Source: a phage. From it: DNA of 64,000 nucleotides. Under the pieces are notes generated by a model. The model worked only from the letters and a program-made list of their open reading frames with translations. It did not search any database and was not told the DNA's origin. The stretch lies in sequence record PZ445430.1. One strand, given 5' to 3'. A program made the position numbers and the translations under genes. Positions 4,649-57,835 of this stretch are shown piece after piece. The stretch's first letter is position 1; the number at the start of each line of letters is the position of its first letter.

Positions 4649-4730
4649 TCTCCTTTGCACGCTTTCGTGCCTTCTAAATGCAAAAAGGGGAAGGAGCATA
4701 GCCCCCTCCCCTTAGGTTTAATTTACCAGA

Positions 4731-5498: not shown

Positions 5499-6273
5499 TA
5501 TTATTTTTCTCCAATAGTTCTTTAATCGACAGGATTTCTATCCCATTCGTTTCGGCTTTCTTATAAGATGAGGAAGAACGTTTTGATTCATCCTCACAGA
5601 TTAGGTATTTGACGTCTTTGGTAACGGACTTCTTAACCGTATATCCTAGACTCTCTAAATAGTTTGTTGCATCCGTTCGATTTGCAAAATCTTGCAAAGA
5701 TCCGGTAATACAGACCGTGATTCCATTTGGCTGAGCAACTAAATCATCTGTAATGATGATATCAGCTTTAGCACCTCGAATACCAGTTGAGAATTTCCAC
5801 GGTAATTCAATAACATCCTTGCCTTGCGGGGAATTTAGCCAGGTTTTGTAATTTTCTCCAGCCTTGCCGTCAGCCTTCACATCGTGGAAGCTAGTGCAAT
5901 TTTGGGACAGTTTCTTTGCTGCAACCTCTCCAATAAGAGGAATTCCTAAAGAACCGAGAACTGAACCAAAGTCAATGTCTCCGCGAACCTTAGTATTTAA
6001 CTCGCTAATCAACTTAGCGGCAACCTTGCTACCCACAGCTCCGACCAAATCTTCTTCGGTCAGGTAAAACAGTTCTGAGATTTTAGTCAGCTCCAGCTTC
6101 TCAATAGTTTTCGGGCCAAAGCCCTTTAACTTCATTTTTGTGCAGAAGTTCTCGATTAACTTACTTGATTGCGCTGGACAGTTGGACTTATTCCTACAGA
6201 ATAATTGCCCGTTGACAAGATCTAGCTTAGAACCACAAGAGGGACATTGTGTTGGAATTTCGATTTTCATCAA
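5491..6273 (-). CDS. ligB: NAD-dependent DNA ligase, C-terminal subunit (zinc finger, HhH, BRCT-like)
   Basis: 260 aa; Cys4 cluster CPSCGSKL...CRNKSNCP typical of the LigA zinc finger; GFGPKTIEKL helix-hairpin-helix; AAGGAAG RBS. Confidence 0.7.
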   Translation of the reverse strand: MMKIEIPTQCPSCGSKLDLVNGQLFCRNKSNCPAQSSKLIENFCTKMKLKGFGPKTIEKLELTKISELFYLTEEDLVGAVGSKVAAKLISELNTKVRGDIDFGSVLGSLGIPLIGEVAAKKLSQNCTSFHDVKADGKAGENYKTWLNSPQGKDVIELPWKFSTGIRGAKADIIITDDLVAQPNGITVCITGSLQDFANRTDATNYLESLGYTVKKSVTKDVKYLICEDESKRSSSSYKKAETNGIEILSIKELLEKNNNV

Positions 6274-6300
6274 ATTTCTTCCTTATCAATTTATATAAAT

Positions 6301-6329
6301 ATTATAGCAAGTATTTAAGCATTTAGCAA
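6301..6329 (-). promoter_or_regulatory. sigma70-type promoter inside the ligA-ligB spacer, drives ligB
   Basis: Minus strand reads TTGCTA, 17 bp, TATAAT. Confidence 0.55.
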
Positions 6330-6472
6330 CTACAATTTTAACTAACTTTGCTTACCCTCGCCATAACTTTCTATCCCTCAACTGAATGATAATAGTATAT
6401 ACCTAAGCGGCGAAAATGTCAATAACCACTTTATAATTCCGACATGGTAAACGGGTAGCAAAGGGTTACGAA

Positions 6473-7444
6473 TTAGTCGTATACTCGCTCTACTATACAA
6501 GGGATTACACCACCAGCACGAATCACTCGAATCTGGCTACCGATCTCTAAATCGAGAGCGTTAATATAGTCAACGTTATTAAGAGTTGCTTTAACGATTG
6601 TGGCATCATCAATAATCACCGGTTCGAAATAACCAACTGGAGTTACTTTACCAGAAGCCCCAACTTGCCATTCAACTTTAACAAGAGTGGTAATTTCGCC
6701 TTCTTCATCCTCTTTAATAGCAAATGCACCACGAGGAAATTTATTAGTCCAACCTTCACGGAAGAATTTATTGTTGTCATTAATACGAACAACTTTACCG
6801 TCCGTCGGAATCCATTTAAAGAAGGAACGAACATTAACAACTGTCAAGAAGTTCTCATTCTCTAGCCAAAGCATATCTTTTAAATAGGCTTCTGTAATAC
6901 CGACTGTTTCCGCTGAACACTGGATACCATATGCAACGAAGATTAAACCACCTTCACCAATACGTTGGATGAAATCATCGCTGTCTTTCAGGTTAATAGC
7001 ACCCGAAGCGTAGTTACGTTTGTTCTCTACTTCTTTAGTAATTAGAACTTCACCAGTGATTTGAGTTGGTACTTTTTGGGAAATAGTTTTGGGGATGTTC
7101 AGCATTTTAACATTATGCGTTACATCATTCCCTAGAATACCGTTACCACGAGTTAACGCTTGAACAAACTCACCATTAATATATAATAGAGAAATCGCAC
7201 AACCATCTAACTTATCAGTTTCAACCTGACCAAGTGGGTTGAATGGAGCTTTATCACCACGATCGTAATAGACTTTCTGCAAAGAATACATACGATACAA
7301 ATGAGGGATATCACCTTTCGGTCCGATTTCTTCCTCTAGTGGGAATCTTTTAATCAGACGATCATATTCTTCGTCAGAGATTAAAGACATACCTTGATAA
7401 TATGCTTCTTGACAGCGTTTAATAAATTCTTTTACATTAGTCAT
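6473..7444 (-). CDS. ligA: NAD-dependent DNA ligase, N-terminal adenylation/OB subunit
   Basis: 323 aa; KxDG adenylation motif in VETDKLDGCAISLLY; N-terminal YYxxxxxLISDEEYD typical of the NAD-binding Ia domain. Confidence 0.75.
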   Translation of the reverse strand: MTNVKEFIKRCQEAYYQGMSLISDEEYDRLIKRFPLEEEIGPKGDIPHLYRMYSLQKVYYDRGDKAPFNPLGQVETDKLDGCAISLLYINGEFVQALTRGNGILGNDVTHNVKMLNIPKTISQKVPTQITGEVLITKEVENKRNYASGAINLKDSDDFIQRIGEGGLIFVAYGIQCSAETVGITEAYLKDMLWLENENFLTVVNVRSFFKWIPTDGKVVRINDNNKFFREGWTNKFPRGAFAIKEDEEGEITTLVKVEWQVGASGKVTPVGYFEPVIIDDATIVKATLNNVDYINALDLEIGSQIRVIRAGGVIPCIVERVYD

Positions 7445-9693: not shown

Positions 9694-9724
9694 ATTTAAA
9701 CTCCTCTCTCAAATTTATGAATCT

Positions 9725-9753
9725 ATTATACAGAAAATTTTTGCAAGATGCAA
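9725..9753 (-). promoter_or_regulatory. sigma70-type promoter (minus strand)
   Basis: Minus strand reads TTGCAT, 17 bp, TATAAT, then leader CATAAATTTGAGAGAGGAG before the ATG. Confidence 0.5.
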
Positions 9754-13954: not shown

Positions 13955-14350
13955 TCAATCATCATTTAGGCCTGGGACATAGATTCCAATGCGATTTAAT
14001 TGACCTTTAGCTTCTTCGAGAATATCTTCGGTGTACTCCCAAATATCATCTTCTACTTGCAAAAGATAAGGGGATTCACCAGTTTCGGGGTCACGTGTAA
14101 TGGCTAAGCCACGTGGATGGAATATAGAGAAGTTGAGGGCAACAATCAAGCCCATGCTGGACAATTCATTCCAGTCAGCTTCCCAACCATCATCTTCATC
14201 TTCGTCCACAAAGACACCTACACTAGGGTCTGTTACAGAAGTAAACGGAAATGTTACACTAACCTTGTCAACCCCCAACCAACGTGCAAGGAGCCCTTCA
14301 GCACGCTCTACCAAATTAGGATCTATCTGACGCCAAAATACTTGTTCCAT
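13955..14350 (-). CDS. hypothetical protein, paralog A of a tandem pair
   Basis: 131 aa; shares W-x-EL-x-x-MGL-x-x-ALN and a GY-x-x-PGL C-terminus with the adjacent ORF. Confidence 0.5.
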   Translation of the reverse strand: MEQVFWRQIDPNLVERAEGLLARWLGVDKVSVTFPFTSVTDPSVGVFVDEDEDDGWEADWNELSSMGLIVALNFSIFHPRGLAITRDPETGESPYLLQVEDDIWEYTEDILEEAKGQLNRIGIYVPGLNDD

Positions 14351-14359
14351 TCTGCCTCC

Positions 14360-14788
14360 TTAAGCAGTTAAACCTGGGATCATATACCCGAAACGACGAA
14401 GTTTCTGAATCCCCTCATTTACTTCTTCGGGCGAATATGACCAGCCCTCACGTTCATTTACCTGGAAAGCAGGAGCTTCACCAGTGCGATAGTTTACAAT
14501 AAGACGGTGATTTGCAGGCATAAACAGCTTATGGTTCAAGGCAAAAACCAGACCCATTTCATCTAGTTCTTTCCAGTCTACAATTTCTTCTACTCTCTCA
14601 CCTAAATCCACGCTAACTCCAATACATGGAGCTTCCTCTAGTGGGCCTTTAAAGGATAGGAAGATATCGTTATTATCACACCAAATCTTAAGCAGATTGA
14701 TGGTTTCATTATACATACCATTAGGGAGAGAACGCCAGAAGTTGAGGAGCATAGGGTTTACCTCTTTCATGAAAAGATTATCGAACAT
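14360..14788 (-). CDS. hypothetical protein, paralog B of a tandem pair
   Basis: 142 aa; same conserved blocks as 13955-14350. Confidence 0.5.
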   Translation of the reverse strand: MFDNLFMKEVNPMLLNFWRSLPNGMYNETINLLKIWCDNNDIFLSFKGPLEEAPCIGVSVDLGERVEEIVDWKELDEMGLVFALNHKLFMPANHRLIVNYRTGEAPAFQVNEREGWSYSPEEVNEGIQKLRRFGYMIPGLTA

Positions 14789-14790
14789 AT

Positions 14791-15330
14791 TTACACCTTA
14801 AGTTTCTGAAGAGCCTTACACATTTCAAGATCTGGACTAAACTCCAGCATATAGCTGATAGCATTTAAATCTTGAAGGTTTATTCCAGTCCTGCCATTTA
14901 CAATAACAGTAGGGAATTGGTACATCATAGCACCAGCATCATCTAGGACACACCAATGCTTGAGCTTATATTTTTCGACGAAACGTAAAACAGAATTACC
15001 CCGAGATAAACCACCTCCAGTAAAATCTGTTGTACCAAGGAAACGATCGATCAAACCGAGCCCGGTCATAATCTGAACGTTCTCCATCTCATTTCGTACA
15101 GAAAACCATGAAGATACCCCAACAATCATTATTGGGGATGGCTTAAGAAAGTTCTGAAAAGCCTGGAGTAATGGCTTGTAAACCCAATCACCACCAAAGA
15201 ATAGCTTCTCACTATCTGGAGCATGATGGTGAGAGATGCTCGAATTGAGCACCCCATCAATATCCAGGAAAATCACAGGAGTATTACTTATTTCCACCAG
15301 TAGCATCCCACGTCCAGACTTTAACTTCAT
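14791..15330 (-). CDS. HAD-superfamily hydrolase/phosphatase-like protein
   Basis: 179 aa; HAD motif I-like VIFLDIDGVLN near the N-terminus. Confidence 0.5.
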   Translation of the reverse strand: MKLKSGRGMLLVEISNTPVIFLDIDGVLNSSISHHHAPDSEKLFFGGDWVYKPLLQAFQNFLKPSPIMIVGVSSWFSVRNEMENVQIMTGLGLIDRFLGTTDFTGGGLSRGNSVLRFVEKYKLKHWCVLDDAGAMMYQFPTVIVNGRTGINLQDLNAISYMLEFSPDLEMCKALQKLKV

Positions 15331-15468
15331 CAGTAAAAGGAACTGGAACCTTCAATTCACCTTTACCCCACATAACAGATAGGAACAGAGAATAAATGGT
15401 AATCATACCGATTAGGTTGACAAACCATACTAGACCTTTCCAGATACCCTTAAAAATCTTCTTCACCA
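15284..15468 (-). CDS. small membrane protein
   Basis: 61 aa from the ATG behind a strong AAGGAGGG RBS; hydrophobic segment GLVWFVNLIGMITIYSLFLSV. Confidence 0.4.
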
Positions 15469-15632
15469 TATTCTCCCTCCTTAATAAGGAACTCTTTCCA
15501 TTCTGCTGTATCCTCATAGATAACGCAGAAATCATCACTCTTCCATGAGAAGTCATCAGTAGCAAATTCGAAACGGTAGCACCAACTACCATCTGGCCAT
15601 ACTAAAAGATCACACATGCTTTTCTGGGACAT
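15450..15632 (-). CDS. small acidic hypothetical protein
   Basis: 60 aa from the ATG behind a GGAGGG RBS; acidic C-terminus EGEYGEEDF. Confidence 0.4.
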   Translation of the reverse strand: MSQKSMCDLLVWPDGSWCYRFEFATDDFSWKSDDFCVIYEDTAEWKEFLIKEGEYGEEDF

Positions 15633-16461
15633 AAATATTTCCCTCCATAAAAGCTTCAACTTGATCAATAAAGTGTTTATTACCAAAAACTTCGGCAGCT
15701 CCAGCACGCCATACAGTAACACCACGTTTCTCATACTCAAGCTGTTCGTCATAACGAACTTGTGGGTTAACAACCATCATCTTAGTTCCACGACATACAG
15801 CAGGAAATAATTCCCAGTTGAAGTTGATAACTTGGTTACTACAACCCACCACAATAACCATGTCATTGCTAGTAAGAGTATCAAACAGGTTGATTTGACC
15901 CATGTACCACGGAGCTGTCTCACCAAAGAACACCACGTTTGGTTTTACCCATTCGTAATCTTCAGGGGCAATCGCAGTATACCCAACATCTTCGATGATT
16001 TGATTGCGACCCTGATGATAGATCACCTCTTTCAAGTACCCGTGAGCGTGAATGATTTCATCACGAGGGATACCAGCACGTTCCAGAAGGTCATCAACGT
16101 TAGTAGTGAAGTTCTTCACGCTACCCGCATCATAACGCTGGAACCATTCTGCAATTCGCAGATGGGCAATGTTAGGCTCAACAGTCTGTAGTTCCTGACG
16201 ACGCATGTTGTAGAACTCATGAGTCTTGAGATACAGATCGTTACCATCTTCATCAATGCCAGGGAAACGAGCGCTGAAGTAGTTAGGATCATCTTCACCA
16301 CAGAAGCGACGGAAGCCAGCTTCAAAGTTAGGCAAGCTACATACTTCCTCTAGATCGTACTCATCCCACAAAGATTTTCCACTAGCAGTATCAGTACGGA
16401 AAGCACGAACACCACTATCTACACTCAAACCTGCACCACTAACAACAATTAGTCTACGCAT
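15610..16461 (-). CDS. SIR2-family (sirtuin-like) NAD-dependent protein
   Basis: 283 aa; sirtuin NAD-binding motif VVSGAGLSVDSGVRAFR; catalytic-type HG in IIHAHGY; VVFFGE block; no canonical CxxC-CxxC zinc module. Confidence 0.7.
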   Translation of the reverse strand: MRRLIVVSGAGLSVDSGVRAFRTDTASGKSLWDEYDLEEVCSLPNFEAGFRRFCGEDDPNYFSARFPGIDEDGNDLYLKTHEFYNMRRQELQTVEPNIAHLRIAEWFQRYDAGSVKNFTTNVDDLLERAGIPRDEIIHAHGYLKEVIYHQGRNQIIEDVGYTAIAPEDYEWVKPNVVFFGETAPWYMGQINLFDTLTSNDMVIVVGCSNQVINFNWELFPAVCRGTKMMVVNPQVRYDEQLEYEKRGVTVWRAGAAEVFGNKHFIDQVEAFMEGNIYVPEKHV

Positions 16462-17118: not shown

Positions 17119-17146
17119 AGCTTTCTCCTCTCAAATTTATAAATCA

Positions 17147-17175
17147 ATTATACATAAGTTTTAGCTCGAAAGCAA
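17147..17175 (-). promoter_or_regulatory. sigma70-type promoter (minus strand)
   Basis: Minus strand reads TTGCTT, 17 bp, TATAAT, then TTGATTTATAAATTTGAGAGGAG leader. Confidence 0.55.
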
Positions 17176-17216: not shown

Positions 17217-19091
17217 TTATTTAGCGCGAATGTCCTGATGTTTCACTCGACCCATAACCTCATGTTGTTTACCTGGGTTAAATGGACGAGCACCTGGATT
17301 TCCGAGATATCCACAAACTCGACGAGTTACCTCAAGAGTCTCAGGATCATGGTTGCCACAAATTGGGCATTTGAAACCATCCTCAGAAGCTATAGTTTCA
17401 CCCAAGAACCCACATTCCCCACAAGAGTCTACTGGAGTATTAATACCAAAGTAATGAACTTTACTTGCGGCATAGTTAATAACCCATTCCAGTGCATCTG
17501 GGAATCGTTTCATATCCGGCAATTCCACATAGGAAATGCATCCACCAGAAGCAATTGGAGTAAAGTTAGACTCATAATCGAACTTCACGTTTGGAGCAAC
17601 CTTACGTTCTACATCAAGGTGATGGGAATTAGTGTAATATCCTTTAGCCAGAATATCTTCATGCTCTGGAAAATACTCACGGTCTAGGCGACAGAAGCGA
17701 TCACATAGAGATTCAGATGGTGTAGCATATAGACTATACCCTAATTGAGTCTCTTCCTTCTTCTGATCAGCACGATCACGCATGTATTGTAGCACACGTT
17801 GAACGAACTTGACACAAGACTCAGACATTGTATCTACATCTTTACCAAACATGAACTGCAACATTTCGTGGCAGCCTATATATCCTAGAGATACAGAAGC
17901 ACGCTTGTAGAAATGATCAAACACATACTCATCTGGCCCCAGACGTAATCCAAAGGCTCCTGACATATAGAGGATGGGCGCAGCTTTAGCTTGGATGTAT
18001 TTTAAGCGATCAACCCTCCACTCCAATGCTTTTAACGCGGTATCCACACGCAGCTCAAGTAGATCGAAGAATAGATCAATATTTCCTTCCGCTTCGATAG
18101 CGATTCGAGGAAGGTTTACGGAAACAACGCCTAAGTTGTTACGACCAGAAGTTTCACCATCTTCCGCAGCAGCCAGGAATGAACGACAGCCCATAGAGAC
18201 TTTGTAGTCTCCCGTAACTTCTACAACCTTATCATAACTGATGTAGTCAGGATACATACGTTCAGCAGTACATTTCATAGCTAACTTCTTGATATCATAG
18301 TTAACATCACCAGGTTTCATGTTTACGCCATCACGCAAAACAAATACCAGTTTAGGGAAGATAGCTGTACGTTTATTGATACCCAAACCATCCATACGCA
18401 CTTCTAGGATTGCTTTCTGTACAAGACGTGCTTCCCAAGAAGTTCCTAGACCAAACCCAAAGGTAATAAACGGACTTTGACCATTAGAGTTGAACATCGT
18501 ATTGATTTCATACTCCAGGCCCTGACAGGCATCGTAAACTTCTTTCTCAGTCATTTCCGTAGCCATTACAGATGCTTTAGCTTCATCCTTAGTCCAACGC
18601 TTTGCAAACGCATGATTCTTATCATAAGACTTACGAACATAAGGAGCCAATACTTCATCTAATCGGTCTACAGAAGTACCCCCATATTGATGTGAACTAA
18701 CCTGAGTGATAATCTGAGCTGTGATAGCAGCCGCAGTAGTAATAGAGTTTGGTGTACTGATTTCAGCATTACCAACCTTCATACCATTCTTCAACATATC
18801 TTCCAAAGCAACCAGGCAACAGTTAGTCATACCTAACGCAGCGTAATCAGCATCATGGAAGTGAATATCACCAATCATGTGAGCATTTCGAATCTGGATT
18901 GGCATTTCTTCCAGAATCAGATATTTACTCAATTCCCCTGCAAGCATATCCCTTTGTGTAGGGAAACGTTCTGAGGGCTTATTGGCATTATTAAACAGCA
19001 GCTCTTCATCTGCTGAACCTTCGATAATTTCTTTGCAGTTTCGAATCAAGGACTGCATTCCTTTATACTTTAGTTCTTCATTGTGATTCAT
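17217..19091 (-). CDS. nrdD: anaerobic ribonucleoside-triphosphate reductase (class III)
   Basis: 624 aa; C-terminal zinc ribbon CGECG...CPICG followed by glycyl-radical motif RVCGYLG. Confidence 0.85.
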   Translation of the reverse strand: MNHNEELKYKGMQSLIRNCKEIIEGSADEELLFNNANKPSERFPTQRDMLAGELSKYLILEEMPIQIRNAHMIGDIHFHDADYAALGMTNCCLVALEDMLKNGMKVGNAEISTPNSITTAAAITAQIITQVSSHQYGGTSVDRLDEVLAPYVRKSYDKNHAFAKRWTKDEAKASVMATEMTEKEVYDACQGLEYEINTMFNSNGQSPFITFGFGLGTSWEARLVQKAILEVRMDGLGINKRTAIFPKLVFVLRDGVNMKPGDVNYDIKKLAMKCTAERMYPDYISYDKVVEVTGDYKVSMGCRSFLAAAEDGETSGRNNLGVVSVNLPRIAIEAEGNIDLFFDLLELRVDTALKALEWRVDRLKYIQAKAAPILYMSGAFGLRLGPDEYVFDHFYKRASVSLGYIGCHEMLQFMFGKDVDTMSESCVKFVQRVLQYMRDRADQKKEETQLGYSLYATPSESLCDRFCRLDREYFPEHEDILAKGYYTNSHHLDVERKVAPNVKFDYESNFTPIASGGCISYVELPDMKRFPDALEWVINYAASKVHYFGINTPVDSCGECGFLGETIASEDGFKCPICGNHDPETLEVTRRVCGYLGNPGARPFNPGKQHEVMGRVKHQDIRAK

Positions 19092-29537: not shown

Positions 29538-29566
29538 TTGCTTTCAGCTCCAAAATTCTGTATAAT
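29538..29566 (+). promoter_or_regulatory. sigma70-type promoter
   Basis: TTGCTT, 17 bp, TATAAT. Confidence 0.6.
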
Positions 29567-29606
29567 ATATTCATAAATTTGAGAGAACAACAAAAGGAAA
29601 ATAATT

Positions 29607-30862: not shown

Positions 30863-30891
30863 TTGCTAATTAGTTTAGTTTTCTATATAAT
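30863..30891 (+). promoter_or_regulatory. sigma70-type promoter
   Basis: TTGCTA, 17 bp, TATAAT. Confidence 0.55.
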
Positions 30892-30921
30892 ATATTTTTA
30901 AATTGATGAGACGAGGCTATT

Positions 30922-31702: not shown

Positions 31703-31731
31703 TTGCTTAAAGACTTAAATTTCTGTATAAT
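31703..31731 (+). promoter_or_regulatory. sigma70-type promoter
   Basis: TTGCTT, 17 bp, TATAAT. Confidence 0.6.
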
Positions 31732-31762
31732 ACTTTCATAAATTAATGAGAGGAAGCGAAAT

Positions 31763-31933
31763 ATGAAATCAGTTGTAATTATTGGTGTTAATACCCGTGG
31801 TATCCGTACTACGAAAACAGTTAAAACTACTAACGTTGCTGAAATTACTACAAACCCTAAGAAGTTTGATTTCGCCAAAGTCTCGGCAGTTATGACAGAA
31901 CAATCTTTTAACCAAGTACTGGGAATTAAATAA
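31763..31933 (+). CDS. small hypothetical protein (56 aa)
   Basis: ATG after promoter 31703-31731 and GAGAGGAAG RBS; below the ORF-track cutoff. Confidence 0.35.
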   Translation: MKSVVIIGVNTRGIRTTKTVKTTNVAEITTNPKKFDFAKVSAVMTEQSFNQVLGIK

Positions 31934-32376
31934 TGGAAGAAAATATTCTAAATGTTTTGCGTAGGGCTTTGCAGGAATCTAAGATTGATGGCTCTGATAA
32001 AGAGGTAGCTAAAAGCTACCAGACCATAATCGAAGATCTTCAGCGTGTTGATAAAGACTTCATTACTTCTGAACAGTTTGTGTCTTATCTCAAAGCTCAG
32101 CTGAAAAGCATTAATCAGACGAAAGCTAAACTTCATGGTCAAGACCTTGATAATTATAGCTTGCAGTCTGCTCAGTATGAATATATACTGAACAAATGGC
32201 TACAACAGTATCTGCCGCCTCAGCTTTCTGATTCTGAGATTCGCAAATACTTTGCAGAATTAGTTACGTTGAACCCTGGGATTACGAAGAGTATGCTGAT
32301 GAAAGCGATTAAGGAAGAATTCCCTGGTCGTTATGACGGTGGCATCGCTGCTCAGGTTGCTGGCGAATTTAACTAA
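31933..32376 (+). CDS. GatB/YqeY-domain protein
   Basis: 147 aa; QYLPPQLSDSEI and C-terminal GRYDGGIAAQV match the YqeY family pattern. Confidence 0.5.
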   Translation: MEENILNVLRRALQESKIDGSDKEVAKSYQTIIEDLQRVDKDFITSEQFVSYLKAQLKSINQTKAKLHGQDLDNYSLQSAQYEYILNKWLQQYLPPQLSDSEIRKYFAELVTLNPGITKSMLMKAIKEEFPGRYDGGIAAQVAGEFN

Positions 32377-32384
32377 AAATTGAT

Positions 32385-32413
32385 TTGCTAAACGCTTCAA
32401 AATTCTGTATAAT
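32385..32413 (+). promoter_or_regulatory. sigma70-type promoter heading the ORF-free 850 nt region
   Basis: TTGCTA, 17 bp, TATAAT, then the usual CATAAATTAGAGAACAG leader but no start codon. Confidence 0.6.
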
Positions 32414-32419
32414 AGATTC

Positions 32420-33272
32420 ATAAATTAGAGAACAGCGAGCCGATTACGCTGAGTGAGTTTAGTGATTCCTACTAGGATAGCTACTCCACTGAATAGAGTC
32501 GGTGAGTTGGAGACTAGTAAGTACTCTGAGAGAGGCTACGAGCTAACGCTTATTGCTATTGATAGGGAACTGAAAATCTGCGGAAAACTCGGGAGCTGTC
32601 CCGAAATCTCGTAAACTCTTCTCTAGTTTATGTTAGTGGGGTGTCGAACTGACTTATGTGATAACACTGCCGTCCTAGTATAAACGGTAATATCAAACCG
32701 TAACTGGTGGAAGATGCAGGTTCGAATCCTGCGGTCGGAAAGAATCAGATAACTCGGGCTTATACCGGATAAGCATTCGCTGCTGTAGTACATACTATGA
32801 CGGTTCAGGAGGTACGCCTCCTGATCAGTATTAGGTTAGAATCGAAACAGCTAAACCACGAGGAAACCTGACGGCCTCAACCAAACTCGGAACTCGGGAT
32901 CACTGCCTAGTGTGTACCCCGTTTAACCTGAGACTAGGCATCCAGCTTCGCATCGAAAATCGGAGGTGCGATTCTAACAGACCGCGTGAATATGAGAGTG
33001 GGAAACGCTGACATGAGAGATGTCACTAATGGTGCCCAATAGTACAGGTAATTCGCGATAATTCCTGTTGAGCGGCAGCAGTAGGCTGGGAGTCATGACC
33101 TAAGCCTAACCGAGTTCTTCACATACGGAGAACATAACCACAAAGTCACCCTGACTTAAACTGGAAGATATTGTCTGACGGAAGGGCTGCAGAGCTTAAT
33201 CTGAGGGGGCTGACCCTACCTACCGTCGGGTATCTTTAAGAGCTTTTATAAGAGTTCTTAAAAATACCTAAA
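32420..33272 (+). ncRNA. candidate large structured non-coding RNA (about 850 nt, promoter-driven, ORF-free)
   Basis: Promoter 32385-32413; no ORF of 60 aa or more on either strand; GC-richer than flanks; many local hairpins (e.g. GGAGGTACGCCTCC, CGGGAGCTGTCCCG); ends at tRNA-Arg. Confidence 0.35.
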
Positions 33273-33373: not shown

Positions 33374-33574
33374 GTGAAAACACGATATATAGTAAAAGTA
33401 GTAGGTGAACATTCACAAGTAAATACCACCGATGTTACAGCGCTAGCATTTGAAGTAGTCTCCGGTATAGTCATATTTCATAACGGAGATATCAAAGCTC
33501 CTGAATTTGCTGTGGATGCTAGCCTGTTTATTTCTGCAACTAAAGTAACTGTAGTAGCTAACTCTTCTAAATAA
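33374..33574 (+). CDS. small hypothetical protein
   Basis: 66 aa, GTG start after AGGA. Confidence 0.35.
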   Translation: MKTRYIVKVVGEHSQVNTTDVTALAFEVVSGIVIFHNGDIKAPEFAVDASLFISATKVTVVANSSK

Positions 33575-33585
33575 TAAGGAAATAT

Positions 33586-34530
33586 ATGTTTACTAAAAAC
33601 ACTAAAGAACTGACTTCCGATCAAAAAGTAATTCGTACTATTAAACGTTGGGGCGTTGGTGCTGTAGTTGGTCTTGGCGCTCTTATTCTGGCTCTCAATT
33701 CCTATACAGTTGTTCAGGACGGTACGGTTAAAACTCAGACTTTCCTGGGTAAAGTTAGTCCTAATCCTGTATTGCCGGGGTTCCATATTGTCAACCCATT
33801 CGCCTCTTTTGATACTTTTAGTACGAAAGATATTTCTATGAAACTGGATAAACTTCAGGTTCCTAGCCAGGATAAGTTTAAGTCCACTGTTGACATTACC
33901 GTTATGTTGCAGTTTGATGGTGCTAAAGCTCCTATGAACCGTGTTAACGCAGGTACTCAGGATCAAGCTCTGAACAAGTACGTTGAAGAGAAGATGCTAT
34001 CTACTATTCGTGAGTTTGGTAAGTCTGTACCAAAAGCACAAGATCTGTTCGACGCTAAGATTCAGGCTCAACTGCAAACTGCTATTCAGCAAGAAGTAGA
34101 AGAGTACGCGCGTCCTTATGGTTACACGGTTAAGCAAGTATTCCTTCAGGATATTACTCTGCCACCTGTAATCATGGAACAGGTACAAAACACAAAAGTT
34201 CGTGAAGAACAAGTTAACGCCGCTAAAGCTGAATTGGCTCGTGTTGAACAAGAAGCACAGCAGAAAGTTAAGCAAGCTGAAGCTGATCGTTCTGCTCGTG
34301 AAAACATGGCAGTAGCTAACGAACGTGACGCAGATGCTAAACTGTACGCAGCTAAGAAAGAAGCTGAAGCTAACGCCGCGCTGCAACGTACCATTACTCC
34401 TGAAATGATTCGTTGGAAGCAGCTGGAAGTTGAAATGCTTCGTGCTGAAAAATACCAAGGTGGTGTACCGCAGACTATTGTTGGTACTGGCTACGATGGT
34501 CAAATGATCATGGATATGCGTAACAAGTAA
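33586..34530 (+). CDS. SPFH/band-7 (HflC/prohibitin-like) membrane protein
   Basis: 314 aa; N-terminal TM helix WGVGAVVGLGALILALN; long Ala/Glu/Gln-rich coiled coil typical of SPFH proteins. Confidence 0.6.
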   Translation: MFTKNTKELTSDQKVIRTIKRWGVGAVVGLGALILALNSYTVVQDGTVKTQTFLGKVSPNPVLPGFHIVNPFASFDTFSTKDISMKLDKLQVPSQDKFKSTVDITVMLQFDGAKAPMNRVNAGTQDQALNKYVEEKMLSTIREFGKSVPKAQDLFDAKIQAQLQTAIQQEVEEYARPYGYTVKQVFLQDITLPPVIMEQVQNTKVREEQVNAAKAELARVEQEAQQKVKQAEADRSARENMAVANERDADAKLYAAKKEAEANAALQRTITPEMIRWKQLEVEMLRAEKYQGGVPQTIVGTGYDGQMIMDMRNK

Positions 34531-34553: not shown

Positions 34554-34592
34554 AAGCCCGCGTTTCCTCCGAGAGCGCGGGCTTTTCTGTAT
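34554..34592 (+). terminator. intrinsic terminator after the SPFH gene
   Basis: AAGCCCGCG...CGCGGGCTT hairpin then TTCTGTATTT. Confidence 0.65.
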
Positions 34593-34742
34593 TTAAGGCA
34601 AAAGAAAAGCCCATAAGTTATTCAACTAAGGTCTTTAGTATTTAATTCTTTAATTCTTTAGAATCATATACTATTATTGTAGCAACAACGTGCTACCACT
34701 AAATGCCTTGAGATTTTTCCACTAAAAAGTTTAAAAATTCGA

Positions 34743-34771
34743 TTGCTTGAACGCTAAATTCTCTGTATAAT
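34743..34771 (+). promoter_or_regulatory. sigma70-type promoter for nadR-pnuC
   Basis: TTGCTT, 17 bp, TATAAT. Confidence 0.6.
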
Positions 34772-34801
34772 ATATTTATAAATTTGAGAGAGGAATCAAA
34801 T

Positions 34802-35857
34802 ATGATTAAGACTGGTCTAGTAATTGGTAAGTTCGCGCCATTAACGCGTGGTCATATTAACCTAATAAACACAGCAGCAACTATGTGTGAACGAGTTATT
34901 GTTGTAGTTAGTCATGATAATCGTTGGCTGGATAAGCAGAACACACGTGATCAGGAAGTATTACAGTTAAAGAATCGACTTCGTTGGTTAGAACAAACTT
35001 ACGCGGATATTGAGCACATTTCGGTAGAGTACATTATTGAAGATGATATTCCTGAATATCCGAATGGTTGGCCGGAATATGCTAGAATCCTTAATGAAAA
35101 TTACGGACATTTGCCTGAGATCACCGTTTTCTCTAGCGAACTAGACTATGATGCAGAATATAAGAAATATCTGCCGAAGTTTGGTCATTATATTGTAGAT
35201 TCTGATCGGACTCGTGTTCCAATCTCAGCTACAATGATTCGTAATGATCTTATGAAGTATTGGGAGTTTCTTCCTAGCGTAGTTCGTAAAGATTACGTGC
35301 GTAAGGTTGTAATCATTGGGACTGAAAGCTCGGGAAAGACTACTTTAACAAAATACCTTGCGAAGCTATACAACACTTCGTGGGTAGAAGAATATGGCCG
35401 AACGTATTGTGAAGTTGATCTAGTTGGTAACGAAAATCTACTTACCAGTGAAGATTACAGTAAAATTGCGTTCAGACACAAAGAGCTAGAGTTTGAGGCA
35501 GAACGTACTGCAAATAAGATCATGTTTGTAGACACAAATGCTTTTATTACTGAGTTCTACCACAGACTTTATGAACATCGTAAGAATCCTGTGGTTACAG
35601 CAATTGCAAAAGAAGAACATTACGATTTAGTAATTGTTCTAGCGCCTACTGTTAAGTGGGTAGATGATGGTTTACGTATTAACTCCGATCGTTCAATTAC
35701 TTCTGAACTGTTCGAGCAGATGAAGAAAGAATTTCCAAATCAGTTCCCTGAAGGGCGTACTGTTTACATCGACTCCCCGGACTACAAAGTTCGTATGGAC
35801 GAAGCAGTAAACGCAGTAGACTGGCTGATTCATCACTTTAACGTTGGAGAGTTTTAA
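34802..35857 (+). CDS. nadR: NadR-like bifunctional NMN adenylyltransferase / ribosylnicotinamide kinase
   Basis: Nucleotidyltransferase motif GKFAPLTRGH at the N-terminus; second-domain P-loop GTESSGKTTL; start at 34802 after promoter 34743-34771. Confidence 0.65.
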   Translation: MIKTGLVIGKFAPLTRGHINLINTAATMCERVIVVVSHDNRWLDKQNTRDQEVLQLKNRLRWLEQTYADIEHISVEYIIEDDIPEYPNGWPEYARILNENYGHLPEITVFSSELDYDAEYKKYLPKFGHYIVDSDRTRVPISATMIRNDLMKYWEFLPSVVRKDYVRKVVIIGTESSGKTTLTKYLAKLYNTSWVEEYGRTYCEVDLVGNENLLTSEDYSKIAFRHKELEFEAERTANKIMFVDTNAFITEFYHRLYEHRKNPVVTAIAKEEHYDLVIVLAPTVKWVDDGLRINSDRSITSELFEQMKKEFPNQFPEGRTVYIDSPDYKVRMDEAVNAVDWLIHHFNVGEF

Positions 35858-35858
35858 T

Positions 35859-36536
35859 ATGACTAACTATCTTGTAAATGACTTTAAAAACTGGAAACCT
35901 TTGGAATATCTGTGGCTGTTTATAGCAGTCGCCTTTATTAGTTTAGCAAACTATAATGGTACAGCTCTAGATTGGGCTACTGCAATAACCAATGTGGTTT
36001 GTGTTATTCTGGTTGCAAAAGGACGTGTTTCCAACTATATTTGGGGCTTAGTGGGTGTTCTTACATATGGTATTACAGCTTTAAACGCAGATCTTTATGG
36101 TAACGCTGCACTAAACCTGCTATACTACGTTCCTATGCAGTTTTATGGAATGTACTTATGGCATAAAAATAAGCCAAGTAATCTGCCAGATGTTCCAACT
36201 AAGTTTCTGACTAAAGCCCAAGCTCTGCTGACTCTAGGGATTCTAGCAGTAGCCACGTTAGGGTATGGTAGTTTCTTAGCTACTACAGCTGATCCATTCC
36301 CAATGCTCGATGCATTTACTGCGGTTGGTAGTGTGATCGCTATGTGGCTTATGGTTAAGCAGTATGCCGAGCAGTGGCTGATCTGGATTGCTATTAACAT
36401 TGGTACTGTGTACATTTGGCTTGTAACTGCTCAATCTACAGGTGCATCTTATGCAATCCTAGCAATGTGGCTAGTATTCTTAGGTAACTCTATTATGGGA
36501 GCCTATAAAGGATACTTTGTACGCGTTAACAAATAA
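35859..36536 (+). CDS. pnuC: PnuC-like nicotinamide riboside transporter
   Basis: About 225 aa polytopic membrane protein, Trp/Tyr-rich helices, directly coupled to the nadR stop. Confidence 0.6.
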   Translation: MTNYLVNDFKNWKPLEYLWLFIAVAFISLANYNGTALDWATAITNVVCVILVAKGRVSNYIWGLVGVLTYGITALNADLYGNAALNLLYYVPMQFYGMYLWHKNKPSNLPDVPTKFLTKAQALLTLGILAVATLGYGSFLATTADPFPMLDAFTAVGSVIAMWLMVKQYAEQWLIWIAINIGTVYIWLVTAQSTGASYAILAMWLVFLGNSIMGAYKGYFVRVNK

Positions 36537-36543
36537 AGTAGTT

Positions 36544-36570
36544 ATAGCCCTCGCTTAGAGGGCTATTATA
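36544..36570 (+). terminator. hairpin after pnuC
   Basis: ATAGCCCTC-GCTTA-GAGGGCTAT. Confidence 0.45.
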
Positions 36571-36583
36571 CAGAAATTTTCAC

Positions 36584-36612
36584 TTGCTTAATATAGAAAA
36601 TTTCTGTATAAT
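36584..36612 (+). promoter_or_regulatory. sigma70-type promoter
   Basis: TTGCTT, 17 bp, TATAAT. Confidence 0.6.
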
Positions 36613-36642
36613 ATATTTATAAATTCGAGAGAGGAATCAAAC

Positions 36643-36939
36643 ATGAAACGCATTGTACTTGCATTGACTCTAGTATCTACTTCTGTATTTGCTGCTCCGC
36701 AACAGGAACTTTGTCAAGTTCAGGTTTGTAATAAGCTAGAACGATTTACTCTAAACATTTGGTCCCATATTAAAGATAATATGGGTGAACAGTGTTTTGA
36801 TATTGTTCTGCCAAAAGAACAGGCTATTCCTGGTGCTGTTCTTAGCTCAGAATCACGTTGGTGGCAGGGTTCTTCTATCAATCCAACTAAGAAGTCAGTG
36901 ACACGTATCAAACAAGTATATCAGTGCAAGGTTCAGTAA
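36643..36939 (+). CDS. small secreted hypothetical protein
   Basis: Signal peptide MKRIVLALTLVSTSVFAAP; four Cys. Confidence 0.5.
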   Translation: MKRIVLALTLVSTSVFAAPQQELCQVQVCNKLERFTLNIWSHIKDNMGEQCFDIVLPKEQAIPGAVLSSESRWWQGSSINPTKKSVTRIKQVYQCKVQ

Positions 36940-36947
36940 AATTTCAC

Positions 36948-36976
36948 TTGCTTAATGTCGAAATTTTCTGTATAAT
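36948..36976 (+). promoter_or_regulatory. sigma70-type promoter driving a tRNA transcript
   Basis: TTGCTT, 17 bp, TATAAT; tRNA-Ser begins about 15 nt after the -10. Confidence 0.6.
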
Positions 36977-36990
36977 ATATTCATAAATTC

Positions 36991-37089: not shown

Positions 37090-37167
37090 GGTTCTCAAGC
37101 TCATTTGGTATGAGCCGTCGCCTCATAAGCGAAAGGTAGGTAGGTTCGAATCCTCCGGGAGCCACCA
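37090..37167 (+). tRNA. tRNA with CAT anticodon (Met/fMet or Ile2)
   Basis: Acceptor GGTTCTC/GGGAGCC, anticodon loop CTCATAA, T-loop TTCGAAT, CCA. Confidence 0.6.
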
Positions 37168-43054: not shown

Positions 43055-43267
43055 ATGATGAAAACTCCTATAACTGATATCTGGTTAGCTGTTAATACGT
43101 TAACTAAAGAGTATGTGTTTATAGAGTATGGTCAGAGGTATGACCAAAAGATGTATAATCTCATACTTCCAGTATCCGCTAATGAAGTTTATGATTTAAT
43201 CCTGAGATCTACGGAAGAGCAAATCGACTTGGTGACGAAAACCACTTGGAAAGTGGCTGACTTGTGA
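43055..43267 (+). CDS. doubtful small ORF overlapping tRNA-Ser
   Basis: 70 aa ORF whose last 55 nt overlap the tRNA at 43213-43305. Confidence 0.2.
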   Translation: MMKTPITDIWLAVNTLTKEYVFIEYGQRYDQKMYNLILPVSANEVYDLILRSTEEQIDLVTKTTWKVADL

Positions 43268-43305
43268 AAGCAGGCTTGAGAGTTCGAATCTCTCTTCTTC
43301 CGCCA
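43213..43305 (+). tRNA. tRNA-Ser (anticodon GGA), class II
   Basis: Acceptor GGAAGAG/TTCTTCC, anticodon loop TTGGAAA, long variable arm, T-arm GAGAG-TTCGAAT-CTCTC, discriminator G, CCA. Confidence 0.6.
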
Positions 43306-43319
43306 AACAAAATTTATAG

Positions 43320-43414
43320 GGTAGGTCAATCCAACGGCTGGCGCTGGACTCCGACTTGAAATCGGTTGATCGTAGTGATACGGTGTAAGGGTTCGATCCC
43401 CTTACCTACCCCCA
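43320..43414 (+). tRNA. tRNA-Ser (anticodon TGA), class II
   Basis: Acceptor GGTAGGT/ACCTACC, anticodon stem CCGA/TCGG loop CTTGAAA, long variable arm, T-arm AAGGG-TTCGATC-CCCTT, CCA. Confidence 0.6.
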
Positions 43415-45838: not shown

Positions 45839-46207
45839 ATGAAAGCGTACCAAAACCTTAAATCCGGCGTAATTAACCTTGTTCATGACAATCAGATCAT
45901 TCAATTATACTCTAAAGATGGTGAACTTAAACAAAAAGTTCTAGTTGAAGATCTAGAAGGTATCACACCTCACTTTGATACTGAAGCCTTTCGCATCGTA
46001 GATGTTGAAGTAGTTCCTCAGGTCGAGGGCGGTCAGCACCTAAATGTCAATGTGTTAAGTCGTGATCAGCTTTTGGATGCACAGAAACATCCTGAAAAAT
46101 ACCCTCAGTTGACCATTCGTGTCTCTGGCTATGCTGTTCGATTTAATGCACTGACGCGTGAACAACAGAACGACGTTATTAGTCGTACATTTACTCAGGC
46201 GATATAA
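45839..46207 (+). CDS. grcA: autonomous glycyl-radical cofactor (GrcA/YfiD-like)
   Basis: 122 aa; C-terminal [11 protein letters not shown]...[20 protein letters not shown] carries the glycyl-radical motif RVSGY and closely matches enterobacterial GrcA as recalled. Confidence 0.75.
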
Positions 46208-57266: not shown

Positions 57267-57295
57267 TTGCTAAAATGCTTAGTTTTCTGTATAAT
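57267..57295 (+). promoter_or_regulatory. sigma70-type promoter
   Basis: TTGCTA, 17 bp, TATAAT. Confidence 0.6.
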
Positions 57296-57325
57296 TACTT
57301 TATAAATTGATGAGAAGGAATCAAA

Positions 57326-57774: not shown

Positions 57775-57802
57775 TTGCTTTTAGCTTTAAAATTCTGTAT
57801 AA
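57775..57802 (+). promoter_or_regulatory. sigma70-type promoter
   Basis: TTGCTT, 16 bp, TATAAT. Confidence 0.55.
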
Positions 57803-57835
57803 TAAGTTCATAAATTAATGAGAGAGGAAATTCTA

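What the first reader, a model, noticed from the sequence alone, without database searches (positions are those of the whole stretch)
34743..36536. Phage-borne nadR-pnuC NAD+ salvage pair next to the tRNA cluster
An operon with its own promoter and terminator encodes a NadR-type bifunctional enzyme (GKFAPLTRGH adenylyltransferase motif plus GTESSGKTTL kinase P-loop) coupled to a PnuC-like transporter. This would let the phage rebuild NAD+ from nicotinamide riboside. The same genome carries an NAD-consuming ligase and a SIR2-family protein, and NAD+ depletion is an established abortive-infection mechanism, so the pair is a plausible counter-defence or metabolic booster module.
Basis: partly seen in the sequence, partly recalled or inferred. 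Interest (0 to 1): 0.7.

Follow-up and report, generated by a model that had tools for sequence, protein, structure and literature searches.

The report
Phage NAD+ salvage pair (NARP3), already published
The two genes are a real nicotinamide-riboside importer plus NAD+-building enzyme in a T5-like coliphage, but a 2026 paper has already characterised a near-identical pair as the anti-defence system NARP3, so the finding is correct and not new.

Summary
The window is 100% identical to Escherichia phage SuperGirl (Bas29, an Epseptimavirus of the T5 family), where both genes are annotated.

- **The genes.** The NadR-like gene runs 34802-35857 and has adenylyltransferase and kinase domains but no DNA-binding domain. 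The PnuC gene runs 35859-36536. Both pass curated family thresholds.
- **Match to the published system.** The proteins are 349/351 and 223/225 identical to Bas30_86 and Bas30_87 of phage TrudiRoth. Yan et al. (Sci Adv, Aug 2026) named that pair NARP3. They showed riboside binding by the transporter, conversion of riboside to NMN to NAD+, crystal structures 9X6H/9X6F, and riboside-dependent rescue of T7 and lambda from Sir2-HerA and DSR1. All 25 published functional residues are conserved here.
- **Earlier hypothesis.** Osterman et al. proposed the same idea for BASEL-collection phages in 2024.
- **What is added here.** The promoter is the counterpart of T5 promoter P15a. The module is flanked by roughly 50-nt direct repeats of a promoter/leader cassette. 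A natural relative (STWB21) lacks exactly this module. T5 carries the ligase and Sir2 genes but has no pair in the 52 kb of it examined.
- **Still untested.** Nobody has tested the role of the pair in its native phage.

The parts
34554..34584 (+). Terminator of the upstream SPFH/Band 7 gene. It marks the left boundary of the nadR-pnuC transcription unit.
   Evidence: Hairpin of 12 pairs followed by TTTTCTGTATTT. Folds at -20.7 kcal/mol.
34743..34771 (+). Sigma-70 promoter of the T5 early type: -35 TTGCTT (34743-34748), 17-nt spacer, -10 TATAAT (34766-34771).
   Evidence: Read directly from the sequence. Window 34688-34805 is 88% identical to T5 37910-37794, which contains the promoter annotated P15a in the T5 record. 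The core is the same as in the annotated T5 promoter P-N25. Activity was not tested here.
34772..34801 (+). 5' leader carrying the Shine-Dalgarno sequence GAGAGAGGAA. Together with the promoter it forms the left copy of the direct repeat (34756-34805).
34802..35857 (+). NadR-like bifunctional enzyme of 351 aa (bas29_0084). Residues 1-166 form the NMN adenylyltransferase domain and residues 167-351 the ribosylnicotinamide kinase domain. There is no HTH domain.
   Evidence: It is 349/351 identical to PDB 9X6F/9X6H, the Bas30_86 structures. All 22 published functional residues are conserved.
35859..36536 (+). PnuC nicotinamide riboside transporter of 225 aa (bas29_0085). Its ATG lies 1 nt after the nadR stop codon, behind a GGAGAG Shine-Dalgarno sequence.
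   Evidence: It is 223/225 identical to Bas30_87, with N45, Q94 and N180 conserved. Matches the Neisseria mucosa PnuC structure 4QTN at E=1.4e-32. The gene junction is shown.
36544..36566 (+). GC-rich hairpin after pnuC, a probable but leaky terminator because its U tract is weak.
   Evidence: Folds at -18 kcal/mol, z = -4.97. Not called by the consensus terminator scan.
36584..36646 (+). Second promoter/leader cassette: TTGCTT 36584-36589, 17-nt spacer, TATAAT 36607-36612. It is the right copy of the direct repeat (36598-36646) that flanks the module, and it drives the next gene, a 98-aa ORF.
   Evidence: The two repeat copies align over about 50 nt at 98% identity (one gap) when the left copy (34756-34805) is matched to the right-hand cassette of Bas30. 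Phage STWB21 has a single cassette fused to the 98-aa ORF and no nadR-pnuC.

Best explanation
This is the NARP3 NAD+ reconstitution module of a T5-like phage (SuperGirl/Bas29).

Proposed mechanism:
1. A strong early sigma-70 promoter transcribes a two-gene unit.
2. PnuC inserts into the host inner membrane and imports external nicotinamide riboside.
3. The kinase domain of the HTH-less NadR-like enzyme phosphorylates the riboside to NMN.
4. Its adenylyltransferase domain joins NMN to ATP to give NAD+.
5. This refills the NAD+ pool when host systems such as Sir2-HerA or DSR1 destroy it, so the phage can complete replication.

Shown for 99%-identical proteins in the literature: transporter binding, both enzymatic steps, structures, and riboside-dependent rescue of other phages.

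Shown here: family membership, near-identity to the characterised pair, conservation of all functional residues, and the anatomy of the transcription unit.

Inferred: early expression in the native phage, and that counter-defence is what maintains the module in T5-like phages.

I put the biochemistry at about 0.95 and the native counter-defence role at about 0.7.
For: - **Identity of the window.** It is 100% identical to phage SuperGirl, where both genes are annotated.
- **Family membership.** Pfam, NCBIfam and PHROGs all place the two proteins in the NadR and PnuC families above curated cut-offs.
- **Match to the characterised pair.** NadR is 349/351 identical to crystal structures 9X6F/9X6H, and PnuC is 223/225 identical to Bas30_87. 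All 25 experimentally probed residues are conserved.
- **Published experiments on Bas30_86/87.**
  - The transporter binds riboside with Kd about 665 nM.
  - HPLC shows riboside to NMN to NAD+.
  - Co-expression restores NAD+/NADH depleted by Sir2-HerA and raises T7 and lambda plating 10^3- to 10^4-fold. It also counters DSR1.
  - Rescue depends on riboside, with EC50 of 3.6-5.6 uM.
  - Single genes or point mutants fail.
- **Expression signals.** The promoter matches annotated T5 early promoters P15a and P-N25.
- **Conserved linkage.** NadR and PnuC homologues lie within 3 kb of each other in 7 of 7 unrelated phages sampled, including ICP1, a Klebsiella jumbo phage and a Bacillus phage.
- **Long residence in the genome.** GC and GC3 of the module equal those of the surrounding genome.
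Against: - The counter-defence role has not been tested in any native T5-like phage. The authors state this limitation.
- Sir2 and TIR NADases release ADP-ribose and nicotinamide, not riboside. The module therefore cannot recycle breakdown products and depends on riboside in the environment.
- Roughly half of the T5-like phage records that share the flanking SPFH gene lack the module. NadR at 90% identity or more is in about 205 records, while SPFH-region DNA matches about 445 non-Klebsiella records. The module is therefore dispensable.
- The narrower NCBIfam model TIGR01526 scores 272.9 bits, below its cut-off of 341.
- The first His of the HxGH motif is Thr, and the Walker-B sequence 'DTD' reads 'DTN'. 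The near-identical enzyme is nonetheless active.
Confidence: 0.85

Rival explanations
1. The module is a general metabolic booster, not primarily an anti-defence device. It would top up NAD+ and re-adenylate the NMN released by the phage's own NAD-dependent ligase. That NAD+ would also supply the CobB-like sirtuin. This would matter because the host can no longer induce its own salvage genes after T5-type host shut-off. This reading is compatible with the biochemistry and is not exclusive of counter-defence.
For: - The phage encodes a split NAD-dependent ligase and a CobB-type SIR2 protein.
- PHROGs files both genes as auxiliary metabolic genes.
- NadR-PnuC pairs occur in many large phages with extensive nucleotide metabolism.
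- The native role is untested.
Against: - T5 has the same ligase (T5.116/117) and Sir2 (T5.102) genes, but has no NadR or PnuC in the 52 kb (20-72 kb) of its genome examined.
- Epseptimavirus STWB21 lacks nadR-pnuC at this slot.
- The phage's NAD+-using enzymes therefore do not require the module.
- The only phenotype measured so far is rescue from NAD+ depletion.
Confidence: 0.25
2. The first gene encodes a NadR transcriptional regulator, as several GenBank records name it, and it controls phage or host NAD genes.
For: Records such as Salmonella phages S116, 1-29 and BD13 annotate it as 'NadR transcriptional regulator' or 'transcriptional regulator'.
Against: - The match to the full-length NadR model begins at profile position 59 of 411, so the helix-turn-helix domain is absent.
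- The protein begins 8 residues before the adenylyltransferase motif.
- The crystal structure of the near-identical protein has only the two enzymatic domains.
Confidence: 0.01
3. The PnuC-like protein imports something other than nicotinamide riboside, for example thiamine, riboflavin or deoxynucleosides as other Pnu-family members do. The pair would then serve another pathway.
For: - An Enterococcus phage PnuC-like gene near a NadR homologue is annotated as a deoxyribonucleotide transporter.
- The enterobacterial PnuC subfamily model NF011926 scores far below its cut-off: 69 bits against 335.
Against: - The riboside-specific equivalog model TIGR01528 is passed: 121 bits against a cut-off of 42.
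- The 99%-identical protein binds riboside, and N45A, Q94A and N180A each abolish binding and function. All three residues are present here.
- Rescue is riboside-dose-dependent.
Confidence: 0.03

Closest known systems
NARP3 (Bas30_86/Bas30_87 of Escherichia phage TrudiRoth; Yan et al., Sci Adv 2026, PMC13464706; PDB 9X6H, 9X6F)
   Same: - Same genus (Epseptimavirus), same gene order and spacing, same flanking genes.
- The module DNA is 97.3% identical.
- The proteins are 349/351 and 223/225 identical, with every published functional residue conserved.
   Different: Four conservative substitutions only, written as window residue versus Bas30 residue: NadR V109 vs I and R260 vs S; PnuC A25 vs V and F116 vs V. 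The paper does not mention SuperGirl or Bas29. It also does not mention the promoter or the flanking repeats described here.
Bacterial NadR (H. influenzae 1LW7, E. coli 8X7F, L. lactis 6GYE)
   Same: Two-domain adenylyltransferase plus kinase architecture. The P-loop, the ISATxIR motif and the WVDDGLR motif all align (E = 2.8e-55, 1.2e-51 and 1.3e-43).
   Different: - No N-terminal HTH regulator domain.
- The motif reads TRGH instead of HTGH, and DTN instead of DTD.
- It is encoded next to pnuC, whereas the two genes are at separate loci in E. coli.
- TIGR01526 scores below its cut-off.
PnuC nicotinamide riboside transporter (Neisseria mucosa, PDB 4QTN)
   Same: The same family by Pfam PF04973 and TIGR01528. 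It aligns over residues 9-215 at E=1.4e-32.
   Different: - Shorter, at 225 aa against 244 aa.
- Not the enterobacterial subfamily: NF011926 scores 69 bits against a cut-off of 335.
- The paper reports three rather than four riboside-contacting residues.
NARP1 (Adps + Namat) and NARP2 (Nampt + Nmnat, e.g. KVP40 NadV/NatV) of Osterman et al. 2024
   Same: Phage-encoded two-gene routes that rebuild NAD+ and overcome NAD+-depleting defences.
   Different: NARP1 and NARP2 rebuild NAD+ from the intracellular breakdown products ADP-ribose and nicotinamide. NARP3 instead needs an imported external precursor and includes a membrane transporter.

Membership tests
NadR-type bifunctional NMN adenylyltransferase / ribosylnicotinamide kinase | N-terminal nucleotidyltransferase domain with the (H/T)xGH motif and the ISxTxxR motif | tested here: met
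   PF01467 matches residues 13-153. GKFAPLTRGH lies at residues 9-18 and ISATMIR at 141-147. Both align to HiNadR and EcNadR. The first motif position is Thr, not His.
NadR-type bifunctional NMN adenylyltransferase / ribosylnicotinamide kinase | C-terminal P-loop kinase domain (Walker A GxxxxGK[ST]) | tested here: met
   PF13521 AAA_28 matches at E=1.1e-31. GTESSGKT begins at residue 173. The Walker-B region reads FVDTN where Hi and Ec have F-I-D-T-D.
NadR-type bifunctional NMN adenylyltransferase / ribosylnicotinamide kinase | Score above the curated family threshold | tested here: met
   NF005988 scores 258.7 bits against a cut-off of 201. The narrower TIGR01526 scores 272.9 against 341.15 and is not met. 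phrog_3462 matches at E=8.6e-154.
Trifunctional enterobacterial NadR (regulator + enzymes) | [quoted passage not shown] | tested here: not met
   The alignment to NF005988 starts at profile position 59. The protein starts 8 residues before the first catalytic motif. It should not be called a transcriptional regulator.
NadR-type bifunctional NMN adenylyltransferase / ribosylnicotinamide kinase | Catalysis of riboside to NMN to NAD+ | not testable with these tools
   Shown by HPLC for Bas30_86, which is 349/351 identical.
PnuC nicotinamide riboside transporter | Score above the curated thresholds of the family models | tested here: met
   PF04973 scores 148.7 bits against 27.3. TIGR01528 scores 121.1 against 42.45. 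phrog_1880 matches at E=2.3e-73. 4QTN matches at E=1.4e-32.
PnuC nicotinamide riboside transporter | Multi-pass membrane protein | tested here: met
   A hydropathy scan gives hydrophobic segments along the whole protein. This is a crude method and the helices were not counted precisely.
PnuC nicotinamide riboside transporter | Riboside binding and transport | not testable with these tools
   Bas30_87 (223/225 identical) binds riboside with Kd about 665 nM. N45, Q94 and N180 are required and are conserved here.
NARP3 (phage NAD+ reconstitution pathway 3) | Adjacent, co-oriented nadR-like and pnuC genes in a phage genome | tested here: met
   The genes run 34802-35857 and 35859-36536 on the + strand with a 1-nt gap. 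The window is phage SuperGirl.
NARP3 (phage NAD+ reconstitution pathway 3) | Homology to the defining pair Bas30_86/87, with the mutationally validated residues retained | tested here: met
   99.4% and 99.1% protein identity, with 25 of 25 residues conserved.
NARP3 (phage NAD+ reconstitution pathway 3) | Restores NAD+ and phage growth against NAD+-depleting defence systems | not testable with these tools
   Shown for Bas30_86/87 expressed from a plasmid. Never tested in a native T5-like phage.

The most novel reading that the evidence does not exclude
The most novel reading not excluded has two parts.

1. In its native T5-like phage, the module may not be maintained mainly for counter-defence. 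It could be an NAD+ housekeeping cassette that recycles ligase-derived NMN and imports riboside once host gene expression is shut off.
2. It may be a recombination-mobile unit, bracketed by about 50-nt direct repeats of a promoter/leader cassette, that is gained and lost between otherwise near-identical phages.

Under this reading, natural variants give ready-made near-isogenic tests. SuperGirl and Sepoy carry the module, and STWB21 lacks it.
Probability: 0.25. Interest if true: 0.35.

Novelty: already known. Interest (0 to 1): 0.15.

Why it matters
NAD+ depletion is a common bacterial anti-phage strategy, and phage routes that rebuild NAD+ decide whether such defences work. This locus is one more copy of the third such route, NARP3, which has already been defined biochemically and structurally. 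It does not change that picture.

The modest additions here are threefold:
- The module sits behind a conserved T5 early promoter.
- It is bracketed by repeated promoter cassettes, and a close relative lacks exactly this module.
- Linked NadR-PnuC homologue pairs are far more widespread in phages than the 124 closely related operons reported. NadR homologues occur in 792 phage records, including Vibrio cholerae phage ICP1.

The native-phage test that the authors could not do is feasible with SuperGirl, a publicly available BASEL-collection phage.

Tried and rejected
- **Wrong accession.** I guessed MZ501106 for Bas30. It is a T4-like phage. The correct record is MZ501109.
- **Promoter and terminator scan.** The consensus scan chose an offset hexamer pair (TTGAAC/TATATT) and did not call the post-pnuC hairpin. 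Promoter-like sites were no more frequent than in shuffles. The promoter call therefore rests on homology to annotated T5 promoters, not on that scan.
- **Literature.** A search for 'T5-like' plus PnuC plus 'nicotinamide riboside' found nothing. Two calls were rejected because a search term was too short.
- **'Transcriptional regulator' annotation.** Rejected because there is no HTH domain.
- **Recent capture from the enteric host.** Rejected for three reasons:
  - The E. coli-type PnuC subfamily model scores far below its cut-off.
  - E. coli NadR is only a distant match (1.2e-51).
  - The module's base composition matches the phage.
- **Searches not run.** I did not run the large protein-database searches, structure prediction or fold searches. 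A crystal structure of a 99.4%-identical protein already exists, so the answers would not change the verdict.
- **T5 coverage.** I did not fetch all of T5. Absence of the pair was checked over T5 20-72 kb only.
Full report
**What is there**

The window is 100% identical over the tested stretch to Escherichia phage SuperGirl (Bas29 of the BASEL collection, MZ501105; Demerecviridae, Epseptimavirus). Window base 1 corresponds to record base 32481.

Two adjacent + strand genes occupy the reported interval:
- bas29_0084 (34802-35857, 351 aa) is annotated 'putative nicotinamide-nucleotide adenylyltransferase'.
- bas29_0085 (35859-36536, 225 aa) is annotated 'nicotinamide mononucleotide transporter'.

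The ORF lister extends both to upstream TTG codons. The ATG codons sit behind good Shine-Dalgarno sequences and are the annotated starts.

**Family placement**

Protein 1:
- It has a cytidylyltransferase-like domain (residues 13-153) and an AAA_28 P-loop kinase domain (174-320, E=1.1e-31).
- It passes the NCBIfam NadR model NF005988 (258.7 bits, cut-off 201). The alignment starts only at profile position 59, so the helix-turn-helix regulator domain is missing.
- It falls below the cut-off of the narrower TIGR01526 model (272.9 against 341).

Protein 2:
- It passes Pfam NMN_transporter (E=2.2e-43) and the PnuC equivalog TIGR01528 (121 bits against 42).
- It does not pass the enterobacterial PnuC subfamily model (69 against 335).

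PHROGs files both as auxiliary metabolic genes.

Compared with H. influenzae and E. coli NadR, the phage enzyme reads TRGH for HTGH and DTN for DTD. The P-loop, ISATxIR and WVDDGLR motifs align.

**It is the published NARP3 system**

A literature search found Yan et al., Sci Adv 12:eaee9000 (12 Aug 2026, PMC13464706). They studied Bas30_86/Bas30_87 of the sister phage TrudiRoth and named the pair NARP3.

They report the following:
- The transporter is a trimer that binds nicotinamide riboside (Kd about 665 nM). N45, Q94 and N180 are required.
- The enzyme converts riboside to NMN and NMN to NAD+, shown by HPLC.
- Crystal structures 9X6H (apo) and 9X6F (NAD+ complex) were solved.
- Co-expression of both genes, but neither alone, restores the NAD+/NADH depleted by Sir2-HerA. 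It raises T7 and lambda plating 10^3- to 10^4-fold.
- The pair also counters DSR1.
- Rescue depends on riboside, with EC50 of 3.6-5.6 uM.
- It also works in Klebsiella.

The window's NadR-like protein matches the 9X6F chain at E=1.2e-240. Direct comparison with the TrudiRoth locus (MZ501109) gives the following:
- 349/351 identity for the enzyme. The window has V109 and R260 where Bas30 has I and S.
- 223/225 identity for the transporter. The window has A25 and F116 where Bas30 has V at both positions.
- 97.3% DNA identity across the module.
- All 22 enzyme residues and 3 transporter residues named in the paper are unchanged.

The idea is older still. Osterman et al. (bioRxiv 10.1101/2024.02.11.579819) wrote that phage NadR genes usually sit in an operon with PnuC and may form another NAD+ reconstitution pathway. 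Their Figure S3B lists BASEL phages with this operon.

**Transcription unit**

Upstream, the SPFH/Band 7 gene (33586-34530) ends in a canonical terminator at 34554-34584.

The promoter is TTGCTT (34743-34748), a 17-nt spacer, then TATAAT (34766-34771). Window 34688-34805 is 88% identical to T5 37910-37794, which holds the promoter annotated P15a in the T5 record. The 75-nt sequences are almost superimposable.

The core TTCTGTATAATATATTTATAAATT occurs 11 times in the window at up to 3 mismatches, against 0 expected. It is shared with the annotated T5 promoter P-N25. This places the pair among sigma-70-dependent early genes. Timing itself is inferred, not measured.

pnuC starts 1 nt after the nadR stop codon, behind GGAGAG.

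After pnuC there is a strong hairpin (36544-36566, -18 kcal/mol, z = -5) with a weak U tract. About 20 nt later comes a second copy of the promoter/leader cassette, which drives a 98-aa ORF.

**A cassette in a variable slot**

The two promoter/leader cassettes form a direct repeat of about 50 nt (34756-34805 and 36598-36646) bracketing nadR-pnuC.

The slot between the SPFH gene and tRNA-Ser(GCU) differs among relatives:
- **SuperGirl and TrudiRoth** have only nadR-pnuC and the 98-aa ORF.
- **Sepoy** additionally has three minus-strand genes, in the position T5 gives to T5.077-079.
- **STWB21** is another Epseptimavirus with flanks about 96% identical. It has minus-strand genes, but a single P15a-type cassette is fused directly to the 98-aa ORF, and nadR-pnuC is absent. 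This is what recombination between the two repeats would leave. It is equally what an insertion would have started from.
- **T5** has T5.077-079 and then P15a driving T5.076, with no NadR or PnuC homologue anywhere in 20-72 kb.

Counts agree with a dispensable module:
- NadR at 90% identity or more occurs in about 205 phage records.
- DNA of the SPFH region matches about 445 non-Klebsiella T5-like records.
- Only 38 Escherichia-phage records have any NadR homologue, against 130 with the slot.

GC (0.39-0.40) and GC3 (0.33) equal the genome background, so the module is long resident in this lineage.

**Wider distribution**

tblastn finds NadR homologues in 792 phage records. These include 355 Vibrio phage records (ICP1 and T5-like vibriophages among them), Klebsiella jumbo phages, and Bacillus, Enterococcus, Lactobacillus and Prevotella Lak phages.

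In 7 of 7 distant cases inspected, a PnuC homologue lies within 3 kb. In each, the NadR homologue begins at most about 12 residues before the aligned region, so there is no room for an HTH domain. The Enterococcus case is weak (E=2e-4) and its gene is annotated as a deoxynucleotide transporter.

Homologous pairs are therefore much more widespread than the 124 operons the paper found with an operon BLAST. The paper's own gene trees already include Vibrio, Aeromonas and Bacillus homologues.

**Mechanism and rivals**

The best-supported mechanism has three steps: early transcription, riboside import by PnuC, then phosphorylation and adenylation to NAD+ by the two-domain enzyme. This offsets NAD+ destruction by host NADase defences. 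The biochemistry is as good as shown. The native role is inferred, and the authors say they could not test it.

The system cannot reuse ADP-ribose and nicotinamide, the products of Sir2 and TIR NADases. It therefore depends on environmental riboside.

The main rival is a defence-independent booster role serving the phage's split NAD-dependent ligase (5491-7444) and its CobB-like sirtuin (15610-16461). It is weakened because T5 keeps those genes yet has no NadR or PnuC in the 52 kb examined. STWB21 likewise lacks nadR-pnuC at this slot. The two roles are not mutually exclusive.

The 'NadR transcriptional regulator' label used in several GenBank records is wrong, because the HTH domain is absent.

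**Verdict**

The system is already known: it is annotated, was hypothesised in 2024, and was characterised biochemically and structurally in 2026 in a 99%-identical pair.

What remains of interest:
- The native-phage test has not been done.
- The module has a repeat-bracketed cassette structure, and a natural variant lacks it.

Noticed in passing
window 9712-9735(-), 17134-17157(-), 29556-29579, 30881-30904, 31721-31744, 32403-32426, 34761-34784, 36602-36625, 36966-36989, 57285-57308, 57793-57816: The promoter core TTCTGTATAATATATTTATAAATT occurs 11 times at up to 3 mismatches, against 0 expected. It usually continues into a shared leader..TGAGAGAGGA.., ahead of the ATG. These copies match annotated T5 early promoters, including P-N25 and P15a. 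The repeated roughly 50-75-nt promoter/leader cassettes look like joints at which gene cassettes are exchanged between T5-like phages.
   Followed up: partly
window 36643-36939 (+): A 98-aa ORF (bas29_0086, phrog_6894, unknown function) has its own copy of the promoter cassette. It has an N-terminal signal-peptide-like segment (MKRIVLALTLVSTSVFA) and four cysteines. RefSeq records call it 'lipoprotein', but there is no lipobox cysteine. It is retained in STWB21, where nadR-pnuC is missing.
   Followed up: no
window 33374-34530 (+); L006 5346-5795; L010 1664-2212: An SPFH/Band 7 membrane protein (314 aa, homologue of T5.080) lies immediately upstream of the module, preceded by a 66-aa ORF. In Klebsiella jumbo phage FBKp24 a 'membrane protease subunit' gene lies two genes after pnuC. 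In Enterococcus phage Ben a LemA-family gene lies near nadR. This may be a recurring association of membrane-scaffold genes with the transporter, or it may be coincidence.
   Followed up: no
window 32614-33166 (+): This stretch is 80-85% identical to parts of T5 'rnaX', annotated there as a stable RNA of unknown function. In SuperGirl, two small hypothetical ORFs on opposite strands are annotated just upstream and at its start (32453-32614, 32623-32793). Rfam gives a borderline tRNA hit at 32669-32740 (29.3 bits, threshold 29), which ARAGORN does not call.
   Followed up: partly
window 43213-43305 and 43320-43414 (+): The GenBank record annotates two tRNA-Ser genes here (TCC and TCA codons). 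Neither ARAGORN nor the Rfam tRNA model at gathering threshold recovered them. The tRNA at 37090-37167 (anticodon CAT) is labelled Met here, but its T5 counterpart is annotated tRNA-Ile2(CAU).
   Followed up: no
window 13955-16461 (-): By sequence, the phage SIR2-family protein is closest to CobB-type protein deacylases (E. coli CobB 1S5P, E=6e-16), not to defence-type SIR2 NADases. Only the C-terminal two-thirds of the Pfam model is matched. Downstream of it on the same strand lie a HAD_SAK_2 domain protein ('Swiss Army Knife' RNA repair, 14791-15297) and two DUF7415 proteins. The T5 record mislabels the HAD homologue as a second Sir2 (T5.105).
   Followed up: partly
window 31933-32376 (+): bas29_0078 is annotated 'recombination-related exonuclease', but it gives only a weak YqeY-like hit (E=7e-5, below the cut-off). 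The syntenic T5 gene T5.081 is annotated 'tRNA amidotransferase'. The annotations disagree and neither is well supported.
   Followed up: no
window 45839-46207 (+) and 17217-19091 (-): A 122-aa protein carries only the C-terminal glycyl-radical domain (PF01228, E=4e-18), like a GrcA-type 'spare part' protein. It sits at the end of the tRNA cluster. The phage also encodes an anaerobic ribonucleotide reductase, itself a glycyl-radical enzyme.
   Followed up: no
L005 (Vibrio phage ICP1, MW794148) 2983-4743: The well-studied Vibrio cholerae phage ICP1 carries a NadR homologue (46% identity) immediately followed by a PnuC homologue (34% identity). Both are annotated 'hypothetical protein' in this record. 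This looks like an unannotated NARP3-like pair.
   Followed up: partly
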